IMG/VR virus record: IMGVR_UViG_3300018424_005577
Span: 1 to 64,000 of that record
DNA length: 64,000 bases
Direction: 5' to 3' (one strand)
DNA from: a virus
Part shown: positions 54,098-59,219 of the stretch, piece by piece
Numbering within the stretch: the stretch's first letter is position 1
How the letters are laid out: every line of letters begins with the position of its first letter
Program-made: the position numbers and the translations under genes
The notes under the pieces: model-generated
Seen by the model: only the letters and a program-made list of their open reading frames with translations
Database searches by the model: none
Told to the model about the DNA's origin: nothing

Positions 54098-55108
54098 TTG
54101 TTTAAAAAAGCGGCTGTGTTTACCGATATTCACTTCGGTTTAAAAGGAAATAGCAGAGTACACAACGATGATTGTGAAGAATTTGTAGATTGGTTTATAG
54201 AACAGGCAAAAGCTAACGGTTGTGAAACTGCAATCTTCTGTGGAGATTGGCATCATAACAGAAATAGTCTAAATCTAACTACAATGGATGCAACTATTCG
54301 AAGTTTAGAAAAAATAGGTAAATCTTTTGAGAAGTTTTACATGTTTGTAGGCAATCATGACTTGTATTACAAAGACAAGCGTGATGTAAGTTCAACTATA
54401 TTCGGAAAACATATTGATGGTGTTACATTTGTAGATGAAATCTATGAACAAGACGATGTAGCACTTGTTCCGTGGCTTGTCGGCGACGAATGGAAGAAGA
54501 TTGAAAAAATTAAAGCCAAATATATGTTTGGACATTTTGAACTGCCGAGTTTCTATATGAATGCTATGGTGCAAATGCCTGATCATGGTGATCTACGTGC
54601 TGAGCATTTTAAAAATCAAGACTATGTTTTTAGCGGGCACTTTCATAAACGTCAAGTACAAGGCAAAATACATTACATTGGTAATGCGTTTCCTCACAAC
54701 TATGCAGATGCATGGGATGACGAACGCGGTATGATGATACTTGATAAAGAAAATGGTAAAGAACCTGAGTACATTAACTGGTGGAACTGTCCTAAGTATC
54801 GTACAACTACACTAAGCAAACTGTTGGATCCAAATGCAGACATTATAAAACCTAAAATGTATTTGCGTGTTACTATTGATGTTCCTATTAGTTACGAAGA
54901 AGCACAGTTTATCAAAGAAACATATATTTCTCAATATAATTGTAGAGAAATAACACTAATACCGCAAAAACAAATTGAAGAAATTACAACTGACTTAGAT
55001 ATCTCAGCATTTGAAAGTGTTGACGAAATTGTATCTAAAGAAATAACTGCAATTGATTCAGAAAACTTTAACAAAAAAATGTTACTAGACATTTACAATG
55101 AGTTATAA
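54098..55108 (+). CDS. gp47: Recombination endonuclease subunit (Mre11/SbcD-like), TTG start
   Basis: Metallophosphoesterase motifs DIHFG, GDWHH, GNHD, GHF, SGHFH. Confidence 0.92.
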   Translation: MFKKAAVFTDIHFGLKGNSRVHNDDCEEFVDWFIEQAKANGCETAIFCGDWHHNRNSLNLTTMDATIRSLEKIGKSFEKFYMFVGNHDLYYKDKRDVSSTIFGKHIDGVTFVDEIYEQDDVALVPWLVGDEWKKIEKIKAKYMFGHFELPSFYMNAMVQMPDHGDLRAEHFKNQDYVFSGHFHKRQVQGKIHYIGNAFPHNYADAWDDERGMMILDKENGKEPEYINWWNCPKYRTTTLSKLLDPNADIIKPKMYLRVTIDVPISYEEAQFIKETYISQYNCREITLIPQKQIEEITTDLDISAFESVDEIVSKEITAIDSENFNKKMLLDIYNEL

Positions 55109-56881
55109 ATGATAAAAGTAAAAGATCTTACAGTAAAAAACTTTATGAGTGTGGGTAATCAAACTCAGGCTGTTGATTTCAACAGAGAAAAGTTAACGTT
55201 GGTGCTAGGTGAAAACTTAGATCAGGGAGGTGACGATTCTGGCTCACGAAACGGTACAGGTAAAACTACGATAATCAATGCATTATCCTACGCCTTGTAC
55301 GGCCAAGCACTAACAAACATCAAGCGAAACAACCTTATCAATAAAACTAACAGTAAAGGTATGGTTGTTTCGCTTGACTTTGAAAAGGATGGACAAACAT
55401 ATAGAATCGAAAGAGGCCGTTCACCTACATTCTTAAAGTTTTATGTAAACGATCAAGAGCAAGAAGCTGAAGACGAATCGCAAGGCGACAGTCGTAAAAC
55501 GCAAGAGTACATTAATGACTTGTTAGGTATGAGTCATGACATGTTCAAGCATATTGTTGCACTGAATACATATTCAGAACCATTCCTTGCAATGCGTCAA
55601 AATGATCAACGTGCTATAATTGAACAACTTCTCGGTATTACTATATTATCAGAAAAAGCAGATGCTCTCAAAGAACAAATACGTGTTACTAAAGAAAGTA
55701 TTACTCAGGAAACACTTAAGATAGATGCTATCAATAGTGCAAACGCACACATTGAAGATACTATTAAAAGTCTTAAAACTAAACAAAGTGCATGGAACTC
55801 TAAAAAACAACAAGATCTTGGAAGATTACAACAAGGATTAGATGAATTAGAGCATCTAGACATTGATGCAGAACTAGATGCACACGAAAAACTGTCTAGT
55901 TGGACAGAAATGAACAATGCTATTTTGGCTCTTAATAAAGAAAAAAGCACACTAGATGGTGCGTTACTACAAGCTGATAAACGTGTTAAAAAGATTGAAA
56001 AAGATGTCTTAGATCTTGAAGATGCAGTATGTTATACATGCGGACAATCACTTCATGAAGATAAAAAACAAGAAGTCTTATCACAAAAAGCAACCGAATT
56101 AGAAGAAGCAATAGCTTATCAGACTGATGTTACTAATAAACTAAACGGAGTATTAAAGAATCTCGACGACATTGGTGATATTAACGGTAAACCATCAACG
56201 TTTTACGAAACTGCTAAAGAAGCATACGATCATCGAAACAATGTGGATAATCTAAAACAAGCAGTTCGGACAAAAGAAGATGAAACAGATCCTTATGACA
56301 GTCAAATAAAAGAATTAACACAAGAAGCAATACAAGAAGTTGACTGGACACCTGTAAATGACCTTACAAATCTTAAAGATCATCAAGAATTCTTATTAAA
56401 ATTACTTACAAACAAAGATAGTTTCATTCGTAAAAAGATTATTGAGCAAAATCTAGCATATCTAAACAACCGACTAACATATTATCTTGATAAACTAGGG
56501 TTGCCTCATCAAGTTCTTTTCCAAAACGATCTAAATGTTGAGATTACCCAACTAGGACAGGACTTAGACTTTGATAATTTGTCAAGAGGTGAGCGTAACA
56601 GACTTATTTTAGGTTTAAGTTTTGCATTCCGTGATGTTTGGGAAAGTTTATATCAAAATATTAATTTGTTATTCATTGACGAGTTGATTGATAGCGGTAT
56701 GGACACAGCAGGTGTTGAAGGATCTCTTGCTGTTCTCAAAAAAATTGCACGTGAACGTGATAAAAATATTTTCTTAATCAGTCACAAAGATGAACTAGTC
56801 GGTCGTGTAAACACGATATTAAAAGTTGTAAAAGAAAATGGATTTACAAGTTATGAAAACGATTTGGACGTAGTAGAATGA
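55109..56881 (+). CDS. gp46: Recombination ATPase subunit (Rad50/SbcC-like)
   Basis: KNFMSVG, NGTGKT Walker A, coiled coil with CYTC hook, LSRGE signature, FIDE Walker B, ISH. Confidence 0.93.
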   Translation: MIKVKDLTVKNFMSVGNQTQAVDFNREKLTLVLGENLDQGGDDSGSRNGTGKTTIINALSYALYGQALTNIKRNNLINKTNSKGMVVSLDFEKDGQTYRIERGRSPTFLKFYVNDQEQEAEDESQGDSRKTQEYINDLLGMSHDMFKHIVALNTYSEPFLAMRQNDQRAIIEQLLGITILSEKADALKEQIRVTKESITQETLKIDAINSANAHIEDTIKSLKTKQSAWNSKKQQDLGRLQQGLDELEHLDIDAELDAHEKLSSWTEMNNAILALNKEKSTLDGALLQADKRVKKIEKDVLDLEDAVCYTCGQSLHEDKKQEVLSQKATELEEAIAYQTDVTNKLNGVLKNLDDIGDINGKPSTFYETAKEAYDHRNNVDNLKQAVRTKEDETDPYDSQIKELTQEAIQEVDWTPVNDLTNLKDHQEFLLKLLTNKDSFIRKKIIEQNLAYLNNRLTYYLDKLGLPHQVLFQNDLNVEITQLGQDLDFDNLSRGERNRLILGLSFAFRDVWESLYQNINLLFIDELIDSGMDTAGVEGSLAVLKKIARERDKNIFLISHKDELVGRVNTILKVVKENGFTSYENDLDVVE

Positions 56882-57133: not shown

Positions 57134-57583
57134 ATGCAGTGGACTTACAAAGGCAAAGTAATAGACAAAATACCAGACGAGTATGAAGGCTTTGTATATC
57201 TCATAACCAATCTTAAAACTGGGCAAAAGTACGTAGGCAAGAAACTAGCAAAGTTCAAAACAACAAAACCTCCGCTAAAAGGCAAAAAGAACAAACGCAG
57301 AGGCTACAAAGAATCAGACTGGCGTGACTATTGGGGAAGTTCTGATAGATTAAACGCAGATGTAGCAAAGCTAGGCGAAAAAAACTTCACTAGAGAAATA
57401 CTATACCTATGTAAAGGCAGGGGCGAAATGTCCTATATTGAGGCAAGAGAGCAATTTGACCGCCGTGTATTAGAGACGGATGAGTATTATAATGGAATTA
57501 TTAATGTTAGAGTTGGCGGTTCCGATAAATTGCGCAAGGCTTTGCTAGAACACACCATCAAGGCAAAACAATCCAACACATAA
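57134..57583 (+). CDS. GIY-YIG family nuclease (Seg-like), single domain
   Basis: GFVYLITN...KYVGKK, YWGSS, F.REIL, E, YYN; 149 aa with a basic insert. Confidence 0.8.
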   Translation: MQWTYKGKVIDKIPDEYEGFVYLITNLKTGQKYVGKKLAKFKTTKPPLKGKKNKRRGYKESDWRDYWGSSDRLNADVAKLGEKNFTREILYLCKGRGEMSYIEAREQFDRRVLETDEYYNGIINVRVGGSDKLRKALLEHTIKAKQSNT

Positions 57584-57586
57584 GGT

Positions 57587-57949
57587 TAGCGGGCCAGTTT
57601 AGAAATACCGCTGTGGAAAAAGCACTCGTATAGAGGCACACGTAACACGTTGAGCGGCGTTCGGTAGTAGAGCGTTTGATTGACGTAGATGGAATGTTGG
57701 CTGTCGAAAAACTGCAAAGTACATAAAAACCGTATGCACAGGAACGAAGCAACGGGTAGCGCAAGCGATGTCGACGTAGGTTGGGAAAGGTCAGAGCCCA
57801 TTGTACAGCAGAAAATACCTACTTCCAAGTCTCGGCTGTGACGAACTCACATGAAGCGAATTTTGAGACAGGCTGGAACCGTAACAGGTTCCGTCTGACT
57901 GAAACAATCTACATGAAACTTAGACGCTTTACTTCGTAAAGCGTTTTTT
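57587..57949 (+). ncRNA. Candidate structured non-coding RNA (~360 nt), family unknown
   Basis: Longest intergenic gap in the window; 48% GC over 57601-57900 by hand count; many nested stems, a long-range GTAGAT/ATCTAC pair, and a 3' terminator. Confidence 0.55.
57924..57949 (+). terminator. Rho-independent terminator
   Basis: ACGCTTTAC-TTC-GTAAAGCGT followed by a T run. Confidence 0.8.
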
Positions 57950-58002
57950 CATATATAATCACTTCTATCATACAAAACGAAGTGTATAGTTTGAGCGATA
58001 GC

Positions 58003-58030
58003 GAAAACAAATATCTACGAAGTAGATATT
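58003..58030 (-). terminator. Hairpin, possible minus-strand terminator
   Basis: Minus strand reads AATATCTAC-TTC-GTAGATATT then TGTTTTC. Confidence 0.45.
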
Positions 58031-58040
58031 CAAAAAGATA

Positions 58041-58048
58041 ACTAAATA
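58041..58048 (+). promoter_or_regulatory. Late promoter variant ACTAAATA
   Basis: TAAATA core 28 nt upstream of ATG 58077. Confidence 0.6.
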
Positions 58049-58076
58049 CATTATAAGTTAGGAAAAGATTAAGCCG

Positions 58077-59219
58077 ATGAAAGTTTACGATATTGTTTCT
58101 CTTAGAGAAGATGAATTGCCAAACGCTAGTATGAGCGATTTGCGTTCTATGCAGTTTGTTGCTGACAAGCAAATATTACCTGATGGAAAAGTAAGAGTTT
58201 TATTACCAGATGGTCAAATCTTAGATTTTGCCGACGAGGCTGAACTAGAAAGAGAAACACGAAAAGCTAAATCTAGACTAGCAACAAAAATAAGAGGGAT
58301 ACCTAGTTTAACTAAACTTGCATCAAGTGCCGCAAGAGTAAACTGGTGGATACAAATTTCGGAAGCAATATATTCAGCTTACACAGAATTTAGCACAAAT
58401 GGAATTAACGGTAATTACGAAGCAGTAAAAATGGAACTGCTTGAAGTAGGTGTTGCCGCTGGTTTAAGAGTAGTAATAGGAACTGTAAGAACACTGGCTA
58501 AAGGAGCAGGAGCTCTTAAATGGATCAAACGTTTAACTACTGCTAAACGTTCAGCACAAATGGCAACAGCGGCGTTAGGCGCGGCAGGTTTTGCAACAGG
58601 AGGTATAACCTGGGTAGGTGCATTGATTACAGGTGCCGGTTGGATTGCTACGGAAGTTGCGCTATACCTAGCTACAGATTATATAGCCGATATGATCATG
58701 GATGAGTTTTTCAATCCTGAAGAAGTTGAAAAAGAATTAGCAGAACAACTGCAAGATGAATTAAGTTTAATTTTAGGTTTGACTAGAAGTGCTAGACACG
58801 TAGACGCTGACGGTGATGGCGAGCCAGACAATATCAATCCAGAAACTGGCAATGTAGTAGATCCAGAAACTGGTCAGGATTACAAATATGATTTAGGTGA
58901 TTTAACTCCTGATGATATAGAAAGATTACGCAATGCTACTCCAGGTCAAATTAATCAACTAGCCGATGATCCAAGATTTTCTGATGTATTGTCAGACTAT
59001 AGAAATAGGATGGACAGCATAGGCGGTCCTAATTCACGTCGTAGAAGTATAACTGATTTCGAAAGAGAATCAGTGCGTGAAGAATCTGACGAAGGAAAAG
59101 TAGCAGGTACTGAAGAACTACAAGGATTTGTAAACTTCTTAAAAGACAAAGGCTACGACAGAGATTTACGCACTAAAGTTGTAAAAGTTGCACAGCATAC
59201 TATGCGTCAATCAGATTAA
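58077..59219 (+). CDS. Hypothetical late protein with hydrophobic Gly/Ala-rich segments
   Basis: 380 aa; central AALGAAGFATGGITWVGALITGAGWIA, DADGDG motif, acidic C-terminal half. Confidence 0.7.
   Translation: MKVYDIVSLREDELPNASMSDLRSMQFVADKQILPDGKVRVLLPDGQILDFADEAELERETRKAKSRLATKIRGIPSLTKLASSAARVNWWIQISEAIYSAYTEFSTNGINGNYEAVKMELLEVGVAAGLRVVIGTVRTLAKGAGALKWIKRLTTAKRSAQMATAALGAAGFATGGITWVGALITGAGWIATEVALYLATDYIADMIMDEFFNPEEVEKELAEQLQDELSLILGLTRSARHVDADGDGEPDNINPETGNVVDPETGQDYKYDLGDLTPDDIERLRNATPGQINQLADDPRFSDVLSDYRNRMDSIGGPNSRRRSITDFERESVREESDEGKVAGTEELQGFVNFLKDKGYDRDLRTKVVKVAQHTMRQSD

What the first reader, a model, noticed from the sequence alone, without database searches (positions are those of the whole stretch)
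57134..57949. Stand-alone GIY-YIG nuclease followed at once by a ~360-nt structured RNA candidate: possible ribonucleoprotein system
Seen: the gap begins at the nuclease stop and is 48% GC in an AT-rich genome. Pairings: AGCGG 57588-92 / CCGCT 57608-12; GGCGTTC 57656-62 / GAGCGTT 57670-76; long-range GTAGAT 57685-90 / ATCTAC 57907-12. The long-range pair encloses GTAGGT 57776-81 / ACCTAC 57817-22 (inner TGGG/CCCA), GTCTC 57829-33 / GAGAC 57865-69 (inner GTGA/TCAC) and GGAACC 57875-80 / GGTTCC 57887-92. A terminator follows. The protein has a basic insert (KPPLKGKKNKRRG) but no visible C-terminal DNA-recognition domains of the kind homing GIY-YIG enzymes carry. Known analogy: IscB and TnpB nucleases use an adjacent ncRNA. 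Inference: the RNA is a cofactor, guide or regulator of the nuclease, or an independent new phage ncRNA.
Basis: partly seen in the sequence, partly recalled or inferred. Interest (0 to 1): 0.85.

Follow-up and report, generated by a model that had tools for sequence, protein, structure and literature searches.

The report
Twin-box phage RNA beside nuclease gene
The gene-free stretch behind a small DNA-cutting enzyme gene of this uncultured giant marine phage encodes a real, knotted RNA of about 350-390 bases from an uncatalogued family; the RNA also occurs in small phages without the enzyme, so it is not the enzyme's guide, and its job is unknown.

Summary
Window 57560-57946 (+) encodes a large pseudoknotted RNA. 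Across 76 distinct relatives, 54 base pairs in 10 helices are 98% canonical and 24 pairs show compensatory changes. G-U outnumbers A-C 450 to 11, which fixes the + strand. No conserved ORF is present and Rfam 15 has no match. The RNA starts inside the last codons of the 149-aa GIY-YIG gene, not at its stop. Its long-range GTAGAT/ATCTAC pair and the inner GTGA/TCAC pair are refuted.

Linkage to the nuclease is not obligate. Podophage-like contigs (about 30 kb estimated) carry the RNA without any GIY-YIG gene. The complete Melnitz phage genome has a 66%-identical GIY-YIG gene but no such RNA. No guide-like segment exists; the variable parts are swappable hairpins.

Two identical 7-9-nt single-stranded words (57850-56 and 57912-18) change together, with at least 12 matched versions. 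In some relatives a small PF12843-like ORF lies directly upstream of the RNA, and this ORF+RNA pair recurs in both phage types.

Earlier follow-ups of this scan found the same 'twin-box' RNA on other DNA. Function remains inferred.

The parts
57134..57583 (+). 149-aa stand-alone GIY-YIG protein gene: catalytic domain plus a 26-aa tail. The last 7 codons are encoded by the RNA's 5' flank.
   Evidence: PF19835 at E 1e-34 over the full profile, and phrog_447, a 148-aa family. The protein is under strong purifying selection. Third-position entropy falls to 0.34 in the last 10 codons.
57560..57946 (+). Whole RNA element: 5' flank AGGCAAAAC.., pseudoknotted body, twin boxes and terminal hairpin. The 3' limit is uncertain and could reach about 58031.
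   Evidence: Conserved at 66-95% in all related loci. Covariation. The 5' flank is homologous to non-coding sequence in L137, L092 and L147.
57573..57578 (+). H1 5' strand (CCAACA), inside the GIY-YIG ORF. It pairs with 57695-57700.
   Evidence: 76 of 76 sequences are canonical at all 6 pairs, and 4 pairs show compensatory changes.
57588..57612 (+). Hairpin Ha (AGCGG/CCGCU) with a 15-nt loop whose middle varies.
   Evidence: 73-76 of 76 canonical, with compensatory changes at 4 pairs.
57613..57641 (+). Hairpin Hb (GUG/CAC) with an inner stem that swaps sequence.
   Evidence: 57614-57640 shows UA 62, AU 11, GC 2. Inner-stem swaps are visible.
57647..57686 (+). Helix Hc (ACGUUGA/UUGACGU). It encloses a replaceable peripheral hairpin, 57655-57677 in the short form.
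   Evidence: Three pairs have 22-30 compensatory cells each. A long alternative insert occurs in other members.
57688..57705 (+). Hairpin Hd. Its loop 57695-57700 is the H1 3' strand, which makes pseudoknot 1.
57712..57723 (+). Long-range helix H2, 5' strands (CUGC, GUACA). They pair with 57802-57811.
   Evidence: GUAC/GUAC alternates with ACAC/GUGU and GUUC/GAAC, and CUGC/GCAG with ACACA/UGUGU. UUGCA/UGCAA is seen in L216.
57730..57755 (+). Hairpin He with an invariant AGGAACGAAGC loop.
   Evidence: 57731-54 shows UA 39, CG 30. 57732-53 shows CG 52, GC 20.
57757..57768 (+). Hairpin Hf, GNRA-capped in the window. In relatives it is the site of 20-130-nt hairpin insertions.
57776..57822 (+). 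Helix Hx (GUAGGU/ACCUAC). It crosses H2, which makes pseudoknot 2. It encloses the invariant core UGGGAAAGGUCAGAGCCCA.
   Evidence: Distant members support the inner stem.
57829..57869 (+). Helix Hy (GUCUC/GAGAC), which encloses box 1.
   Evidence: Compensatory variants GUCA/UGAC and GUCUU/AAGAU.
57850..57856 (+). Twin box 1 (CAUGAAG), predicted single-stranded.
   Evidence: It always matches box 2. At least 12 matched versions exist across the family.
57872..57895 (+). Hairpin Hz (GGAACC/GGUUCC plus an extension).
   Evidence: 76 of 76 canonical. 57880-87 shows CG 66, UA 10.
57912..57918 (+). Twin box 2 (CAUGAAA), predicted single-stranded.
57922..57946 (+). Terminator-like hairpin with a UUCG loop and a T-run.
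   Evidence: The stem sequence varies but stays paired in relatives.
57988..58007 (+). Conserved downstream block GTTTGAGCGATAGCGAAAAC. It also follows the RNA in the small phages.
   Evidence: 57996-58001 shows CG 63, UA 8. Its role is unknown.

Best explanation
Window 57560-57946 (+) is a gene for a member of a new, widespread family of large, doubly pseudoknotted phage non-coding RNAs, called 'twin-box RNA' here. It is transcribed with or just behind the upstream gene and ends at a hairpin terminator.

It is an autonomous RNA module, not a cofactor of the GIY-YIG protein. The same RNA, often preceded by a small PF12843-like 'MAKIDW...' ORF, travels between giant T4-like phages and podophage-like contigs of about 30 kb estimated size. 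In the window's lineage that small ORF is missing. I infer that it was deleted, which would have left the RNA's 5' flank encoding the last 7 codons of the nuclease gene.

Inferred mechanism: the conserved, knotted core is a rigid scaffold. It presents two identical single-stranded 7-9-nt words (57850-56 and 57912-18) to two copies, or two sites, of one partner outside the RNA. That partner co-evolves quickly and is a protein or nucleic acid of the phage or its host.

Shown: the structure, the strand, the family, the independence from the nuclease, and the concerted change of the twin boxes. Inferred: that the RNA acts as a free RNA, and what it binds.
For: Structure:
- 54 pairs are 98.1% canonical and 24 show compensatory change. 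Slid controls give 35-43% canonical and 4-9 pairs. Shuffles reach at most 91.7% and 20 pairs.
- G-U cells number 450 against 11 A-C cells.
- Lengths run 330-475 nt and are not multiples of three.

No known family:
- Rfam 15 finds nothing at gathering score in the window.
- Nothing at E<=10 in the locus.
- Nothing meaningful in 12 related loci.

Spread:
- More than 119 IMG/VR stretches hold the exact 21-nt core.
- GTDB species genomes hold none, and blastn finds none in 50,697 phage isolates.

Independence from the nuclease:
- L107, L113 and L213-L223 have the RNA without GIY-YIG.
- The covariance model finds L107, which it was not trained on, at 84 bits. It finds nothing in the complete Melnitz genome, which has a 66%-identical GIY-YIG gene.
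- Melnitz gp46 is only 28% identical.
- A spacer or small ORF sits between GIY and RNA in 11 of 84 giant-phage contexts.

Small-ORF module:
- L122 (giant phage) against L213 (small phage) gives 31% identity over 83 aa, pairwise E 5e-15. PF12843 hits are at or near the cut-off.

Twin boxes.

RNA-library contigs from three salt-marsh studies and a 2009 marine 454 library hold near-identical RNA sequence. This is a weak sign of expression.
Against: - No transcript ends, abundance or strand were measured. Contigs from RNA libraries can contain DNA.
- No partner for the twin boxes was found, so the 'two copies of one outside partner' step is pure inference. Concerted change could also come from gene conversion between the two copies or from DNA-level sites.
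- In 84 of 84 giant-phage contexts the GIY-YIG gene lies within 900 nt upstream. A link in that lineage cannot be ruled out.
- The window's record is only about 28% complete, so a small-ORF homologue elsewhere in the genome cannot be excluded.
- The 3' boundary is uncertain, because a conserved block continues to about 58010.
Confidence: 0.6

Rival explanations
1. The RNA is a cofactor, guide or regulator of the adjacent GIY-YIG nuclease. This catalytic-domain-only enzyme lacks a DNA-binding domain and would borrow target recognition from the RNA, as IscB and TnpB do with their omega RNAs.
For: The protein is a bare catalytic domain. Adjacency holds in 84 of 84 giant-phage contexts across gp46 divergence down to 52%. 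The ORF end is buried in helix H1.
Against: The RNA occurs without the nuclease and the nuclease without the RNA. A small ORF or spacer is inserted between them in 11 of 84 contexts. No unpaired variable segment of guide length exists; the variable parts are paired hairpins. The 148-aa short form is a widespread phage family (phrog_447), found in 847 isolate records that blastn shows to lack this RNA.
Confidence: 0.07
2. The RNA works together with the small PF12843-like 'MAKIDW' protein encoded directly upstream of it in many relatives. This would be a two-part protein-RNA module. The window carries a version that lost the protein gene or keeps it elsewhere.
For: Homologous small ORFs abut the RNA in both giant and small phages.
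Against: 73 of 84 giant-phage contexts, the window included, have no such ORF between GIY and RNA. None is found in the 102-kb record or in a 236-kb relative. The twin boxes still change in concert in those lineages. Other small phages have unrelated small ORFs at that place.
Confidence: 0.15
3. It acts in cis. It could be a 3'-UTR or leader element that stabilises the upstream message, couples to its translation, or controls read-through of the terminal hairpin into the downstream genes. Those are the packaging genes in the small phages and a hypervariable 380-aa gene here.
For: An upstream same-strand ORF always ends within about 20 nt of, or inside, the 5' end. A terminator-like hairpin lies at the 3' end. 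In small phages the RNA sits just before the terminase genes.
Against: The size and double pseudoknot far exceed known cis antiterminators. Upstream and downstream genes differ between lineages. Small-phage copies lack a clear terminator.
Confidence: 0.12
4. It marks a replication origin, a priming site or a packaging site. The twin boxes would be DNA sites for one phage protein, and the RNA a primer or by-product.
For: Identical direct repeats 62 bp apart that change in parallel are typical of sites read by one DNA-binding protein. In small phages the element lies next to terminase genes and often near contig ends. An earlier follow-up of this scan proposed an origin.
Against: G-U pairs (450) far outnumber A-C (11) and helix covariation is extensive, so selection acts on one RNA strand. 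Cumulative GC skew shows no turn at the locus. Contig ends can equally be assembly breaks at a conserved repeat-like sequence.
Confidence: 0.08
5. It is a self-processing RNA such as a ribozyme or degenerate intron. The twin boxes would be two identical processing sites that release the 62-nt piece between them.
For: It has a ribozyme-like ornate core with invariant unpaired nucleotides. A P3/P7-like crossing of helices H2 and Hx is present. GIY-YIG genes often accompany group I introns (established knowledge).
Against: No Rfam ribozyme or intron model matches at E<=10. No split host gene is present, and flanking genes differ among lineages. There is no hairpin between the H2 3' strand and the Hx 3' strand where group I has P8. 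One RNA contig skips 57803-57878, but it is a single low-depth record.
Confidence: 0.05

Closest known systems
GOLLD (RF01998) and ROOL (RF03087) large ornate RNAs
   Same: They are large, elaborately folded non-coding RNAs often carried by phages or prophages. They have modular peripheral hairpins, were found by comparative genomics, and have no known biochemical job (PMC12286853 describes their cryo-EM assemblies).
   Different: No sequence or structure match was found. This RNA is smaller (330-475 nt), occurs in marine and estuarine phages, and carries the co-varying twin boxes. Oligomerisation was not tested.
OMEGA systems (IscB with HEARO/omega RNA; TnpB with its RNA)
   Same: A compact nuclease gene is followed or overlapped by a structured RNA gene on the same strand.
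   Different: The nuclease here is a GIY-YIG catalytic domain, not RuvC/HNH. Co-occurrence is not obligate. No guide segment and no transposon ends were seen.
Free-standing GIY-YIG (Seg-type) endonuclease genes of T4-like phages, e.g. SegB among the T4 tRNA genes
   Same: The protein has a SegE-type GIY-YIG domain. The gene sits beside a highly conserved RNA gene. It is far more similar between distant phages than core genes are (66% against 28%).
   Different: It has 149 aa and no C-terminal DNA-binding domain. It is fixed and under purifying selection in this lineage rather than patchy. Homing was not tested.
Group I introns with GIY-YIG ORFs (T4 td / I-TevI)
   Same: The ORF's 3' end overlaps RNA core structure. 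A long-range helix is crossed by a second helix, A-rich joining strands are present, and GNRA-capped peripheral hairpins serve as insertion sites.
   Different: No RF00028 match, no exons, a different helix order, and the ORF lies outside the RNA.

Membership tests
PF19835 SegE_GIY-YIG (protein) | Profile match above the curated cut-off over the whole domain | tested here: met
   119.7 bits against a cut-off of 25. Residues 3-123 match profile positions 1-123.
Seg-type homing endonuclease | C-terminal DNA-binding or recognition domain behind the catalytic domain | tested here: not met
   Only 26 residues follow the domain, and no second Pfam hit appears at E<=0.1. The relatives in the fetched loci are 141-158 aa, and the phrog_447 profile is 148 long.
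Seg-type homing endonuclease | Patchy presence among close relatives (mobile, dispensable) | tested here: inconclusive
   It is present in 84 of 84 giant-phage contexts. Yet it is 66% identical to the Melnitz copy at another locus, while gp46 is 28% identical.
RNA-guided nuclease systems (IscB/TnpB type) | Nuclease and RNA always occur together | tested here: not met
   RNA without nuclease: L107, L113, L213-L223. Nuclease without RNA: complete Melnitz genome.
RNA-guided nuclease systems (IscB/TnpB type) | Variable unpaired guide next to a constant scaffold | tested here: not met
   The variable segments are base-paired, replaceable hairpins. The only variable unpaired words are the 7-9-nt twin boxes and about 10 nt of the Ha loop.
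Group I intron (RF00028) | Covariance-model match; interrupted host gene with exons | tested here: not met
   No hit at E<=10. Flanking genes are unrelated across lineages.
GOLLD / ROOL / HEARO / Polynucleobacter-1 (Rfam) | Covariance-model match | tested here: not met
   No hit at gathering score or at E<=10, 5 or 1, in the window and in 12 related loci.
Structured non-coding RNA (general) | Compensatory base changes beyond controls, strand-specific G-U, no conserved reading frame | tested here: met
Intrinsic terminator | GC-containing hairpin followed by a T-run | tested here: met
   57922-57946, 11 pairs, followed by TTTTCAT. Many relatives keep the hairpin but not the T-run.

The most novel reading that the evidence does not exclude
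The twin-box RNA is a new functional class: a knotted scaffold that reads one fast-evolving outside partner twice through two identical single-stranded words. The partner could be a host defence or RNA-processing factor that it traps, or a phage protein dimer that it organises. The RNA would be traded as a module between giant and small marine phages. A still bolder variant is that the domain-less GIY-YIG enzyme in the giant-phage lineage is aimed by this RNA.
Probability: 0.3. Interest if true: 0.85.

Novelty: new variant of a known kind. Interest (0 to 1): 0.62.

Why it matters
Large RNAs with this much conserved tertiary architecture are rare, and the known ones are ribozymes, riboswitch-like sensors or RNP scaffolds. 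This family is common in uncultured marine and estuarine phages: hundreds of IMG/VR contigs hold it. It crosses phage families, appears in RNA libraries, and is in no catalogue.

The twin boxes give a concrete experimental handle. One or both words can be changed and tested for what is lost or no longer bound. The work also removes a tempting but unsupported claim of an RNA-guided GIY-YIG nuclease.

Tried and rejected
- Rfam at gathering score and at permissive E-values, on the window and 12 related loci: nothing.
- ARAGORN for tRNA or tmRNA: none.
- Single-sequence folding: not better than shuffles on either strand.
- blastn of the locus and of the L113 version against 50,697 phage isolates: no match.
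- Exact 21-mer in GTDB species genomes: none.
- The RNAalifold proposal GUAGGUUG/CAAUCUAC was rejected by 10 mismatching cells, where the rival pairing has compensatory changes.
- Search for an internal complement of the twin boxes (7-mer, at most 1 mismatch, G-U allowed): no consistent site.
- Box-box pairing fails for the CAUAAU, CAGAAA and CAUCAA types.
- The boxes are not start codons or a small ORF. Several box types lack AUG, GUG or UUG, and the indels are not in threes.
- Rolling-template idea: no reverse transcriptase (PF00078) in three records of up to 236 kb.
- C-GAA-G hairpins downstream are not special to the locus; they occur elsewhere in the window as ordinary hairpins.
- PDB sequence search with the protein: no hit.
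- Pelagiphages HTVC202P and HTVC111P, the nearest TerL relatives of the small phages at 46%: no RNA by the covariance model in the 8-kb regions around TerL.
- RNA-library contigs cover 57134-57920 and not 57940-58080. Contigs cannot give ends or strand, and the stop coincides with the variable hairpin.
- Literature searches found no described GIY-YIG/ncRNA system or this RNA.
- No complex prediction was run, because the tool takes no RNA chain.

Full report
**Setting**

The window is part of a 101.9-kb IMG/VR virus record that CheckV estimates at 28% complete. A 236-kb relative is estimated at 66% complete. Both point to a giant phage of about 360 kb.

Upstream lie T4-type gp47 and gp46 recombination nuclease genes, at 54098-55108 and 55109-56881. 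Their best isolate relatives are PA5oct-like giant phages at 49% identity. Next come a 69-aa ORF, the GIY-YIG gene (57134-57583), a 493-nt stretch without an annotated gene, a 380-aa ORF, and a gp26-like gene on the minus strand.

**The protein**

Residues 3-123 of 149 match the whole PF19835 SegE_GIY-YIG profile at E 1e-34. The protein also falls in phrog_447, whose profile is 148 long. The short form is therefore a family trait, and the basic stretch lies within the profile.

Across 59 distinct alleles the amino-acid sequence hardly varies while third codon positions do, which indicates purifying selection. In the last ten codons third-position entropy drops to 0.34, against 0.5-1.35 elsewhere, while the amino acids there do change. 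That signals a second, nucleotide-level constraint on the ORF end.

**The RNA is real**

- A protein-seeded scan gave 595 related IMG/VR stretches, and 80 were kept.
- The gene-free stretch is conserved right behind the gene at 66-95% identity, with many indels. The gp47-gp46-ORF-GIY order is kept, but the 380-aa gene is not.
- Alignments show constant blocks separated by hairpins that swap sequence but stay paired, plus two sites where whole hairpins are inserted or replaced.
- On 76 distinct sequences, 54 pairs in 10 helices are 98.1% canonical and 24 pairs carry compensatory changes.
- Sliding the partner by 1-3 columns gives 35-43% canonical and 4-9 such pairs. Column shuffles never exceed 91.7% and 20 pairs.
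- G-U cells number 450 against 11 A-C cells, so the + strand is the RNA.
- Lengths run from 330 to 475 nt in all three residue classes modulo 3, and no frame stays open.
- The window's sequence alone folds no better than shuffles.

**Architecture (window coordinates)**

- H1 pairs 57573-78 with 57695-700. Its 5' strand lies in codons 147-149 of the nuclease gene. Its 3' strand is the loop of hairpin Hd (57688-92/57701-05), which makes the first pseudoknot.
- Inside H1 lie hairpins Ha (57588-92/57608-12), Hb (57613-15/57639-41) and Hc (57647-53/57680-86), the last with a replaceable tip.
- A long-range helix H2 (57712-15 and 57719-23 with 57802-06 and 57808-11) encloses He (57730-33/57752-55, with an invariant AGGAACGAAGC loop) and the GNRA-capped Hf.
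- Hx (57776-81/57817-22) crosses H2, which makes the second pseudoknot. It holds the invariant core with the small stem 57782-85/57797-800. That stem changes to GGA/UCC in distant members.
- Then follow Hy (57829-33/57865-69), Hz (57872-80/57887-95) and a terminal hairpin with a T-run (57922-46).
One holds only in the short-form subset. The long-range GTAGAT/ATCTAC pair and the inner GTGA/TCAC pair fail.

**Twin boxes**

Two predicted single-stranded words, CAUGAAG (57850-56) and CAUGAAA (57912-18), are each preceded by a similar ..CUCA/..UCUA context. They carry the same sequence in every member but differ between members.

- Versions seen include ACAUGAA, ACGUGAA, ACAUGAU, ACAUAAU, ACAGGAA, GUAUGAA and ACAUGAG.
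- In small phages the versions are ACAGAAAG, AUCAUCAAG, GUCGAAAG, ACAGAAUG, CCAUGAU and UUGUGAA.
- ACGUGAA occurs both in close relatives of the window and in a distant one (L138), so the switch happened more than once.
- I found no internal complement, and the boxes cannot pair with each other in several versions.
- I saw this repeat before consulting earlier notes (note). Earlier follow-ups of this scan on other genomes describe the same 'twin-box' feature.

**Is it tied to the nuclease?**

- The exact 21-nt core occurs in more than 119 IMG/VR stretches and in no GTDB species genome.
- Among 91 distinct upstream contexts, 84 are giant-phage loci, and all have the GIY-YIG gene within 900 nt.
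- In 73 of these the gene abuts the RNA. In 5 it is separated by a spacer. In 6 another small ORF lies between.
- Seven contexts have no GIY-YIG at all. They come from contigs of about 8-26 kb whose records CheckV puts at 28-29% complete (about 30 kb full size).
- In those contigs the RNA sits between a small ORF and the terminase genes. Their TerL is 46% identical to that of Pelagibacter podophages.
- A second pattern scan on the shared 5' end found more such phages. Some have divergent cores. Six have the same 5' domain joined to a different 3' domain that again carries twin boxes.
- A covariance model of 57767-57919 finds one copy per RNA-bearing record. It recovers L107, which was left out of training, at 84 bits.
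- The same model finds nothing in the complete genome of Methylophilales phage Melnitz.
- Melnitz has the closest isolate homologue of the nuclease (66%), at another locus behind a ribonucleotide reductase gene. Its gp46 is only 28% identical.
- The RNA and the nuclease gene therefore each occur, and move, alone.

**Why the RNA starts inside the ORF**

In L137, L092, L147 and others the nuclease ORF ends 230-300 nt earlier with a different tail. A small ORF follows, and then comes the same flank AGGCAAA(A)C..CCAACACAUAAGG, there non-coding. In the window that flank encodes the last seven residues and the stop codon. The overlap is best read as the scar of a deletion that removed the small ORF.

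The small ORF (85-102 aa) starts MAK(I/L)DW and carries a WPxxGK(H/Y)xGxx(I/L)xxLxxxYLxW motif. PF12843 hits it at or just under the cut-off. It is homologous between giant and small phages: L122 against L213 gives 31% identity over 83 aa at E 5e-15. ORF plus RNA thus looks like the ancestral travelling module. The ORF is absent from the window's 102-kb record and from a 236-kb relative, so it is not a universal partner either.

**Expression**

RNA-library contigs from three salt-marsh studies and one record from a 1.2-Mb marine 454 library of 2009 match the nuclease gene and the RNA up to about 57920, and nothing at 57940-58080. Contigs cannot give ends, strand or level, and the break coincides with the variable hairpin. 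This is only a weak hint that the region is transcribed.

**Reading**

The structure and its independence from the nuclease are shown. The function is not.

The size, the two pseudoknots, the long invariant unpaired runs and the modular periphery resemble ribozymes and large ornate RNAs such as GOLLD and ROOL. No model of any described family matches.

The parallel change of two identical words is what one expects if both are read by the same fast-evolving outside partner. I take that as the most likely mechanism, and I list the alternatives above: a cis role, an origin or packaging site, self-processing, a small-protein RNP, and a nuclease cofactor.

The guide-RNA analogy fails three of its defining features: obligate co-occurrence, a guide segment, and the nuclease type.

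Noticed in passing
window 58077-59219: The 380-aa gene behind the RNA has no homologue at E<1e-5 in any of about 50 syntenic relatives, which carry other genes at that place. Only the first few codons look alike. It is a hypervariable slot between the RNA and the baseplate-hub genes.
   Followed up: partly
L001-L080, L083-L161, L202-L222 (contig ends): Many metagenome contigs end inside the RNA. About 25 of the 80 GIY-seeded loci stop 37-260 nt after the nuclease stop, and 6 small-phage contigs end within 700 nt of the RNA. This is either assembly breakage at a sequence shared by many co-occurring phages or, in the small phages, true genome ends.
   Followed up: no
window 57988-58007; also L107, L113, L213, L220: A conserved block of the form GTTYGAGCGA.CGAAA follows the RNA in all phage types. 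It includes a mini-hairpin with a covarying pair (57996-58001). The RNA may extend this far.
   Followed up: partly
L138 and L140, spacer between GIY-YIG and RNA: Two or three direct repeats of CAGACACMAAGTC fill the spacer in these divergent giant-phage relatives.
   Followed up: no
L118, about 75 nt upstream of the RNA: A near-consensus sigma-70-type promoter (TTGACA, 17 nt, TATACT) precedes the RNA in this relative. This suggests the RNA can have its own promoter.
   Followed up: no
L214, L215, L218, L221, L222, L223: A second RNA type shares the 5' domain (ACAAACAGGACAUAAGGUUGGUCACCGG...) but has an unrelated 3' domain, again with twin boxes flanking a hairpin. It also has no Rfam match.
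   Followed up: partly
phrog_447 and isolate records H5-H30: Homologues of this GIY-YIG protein are widely annotated as 'NAD synthetase' in cyanophage and rhizobiophage records. The Pfam match indicates that this label is a propagated error.
   Followed up: partly
L071 and L109, ORF between GIY-YIG and RNA: A variant small ORF ends in a CxxC-containing stretch (..GKIICNDCGGKFV.WLPKG). It sits in place of the YLxW motif and may be zinc-binding.
   Followed up: no
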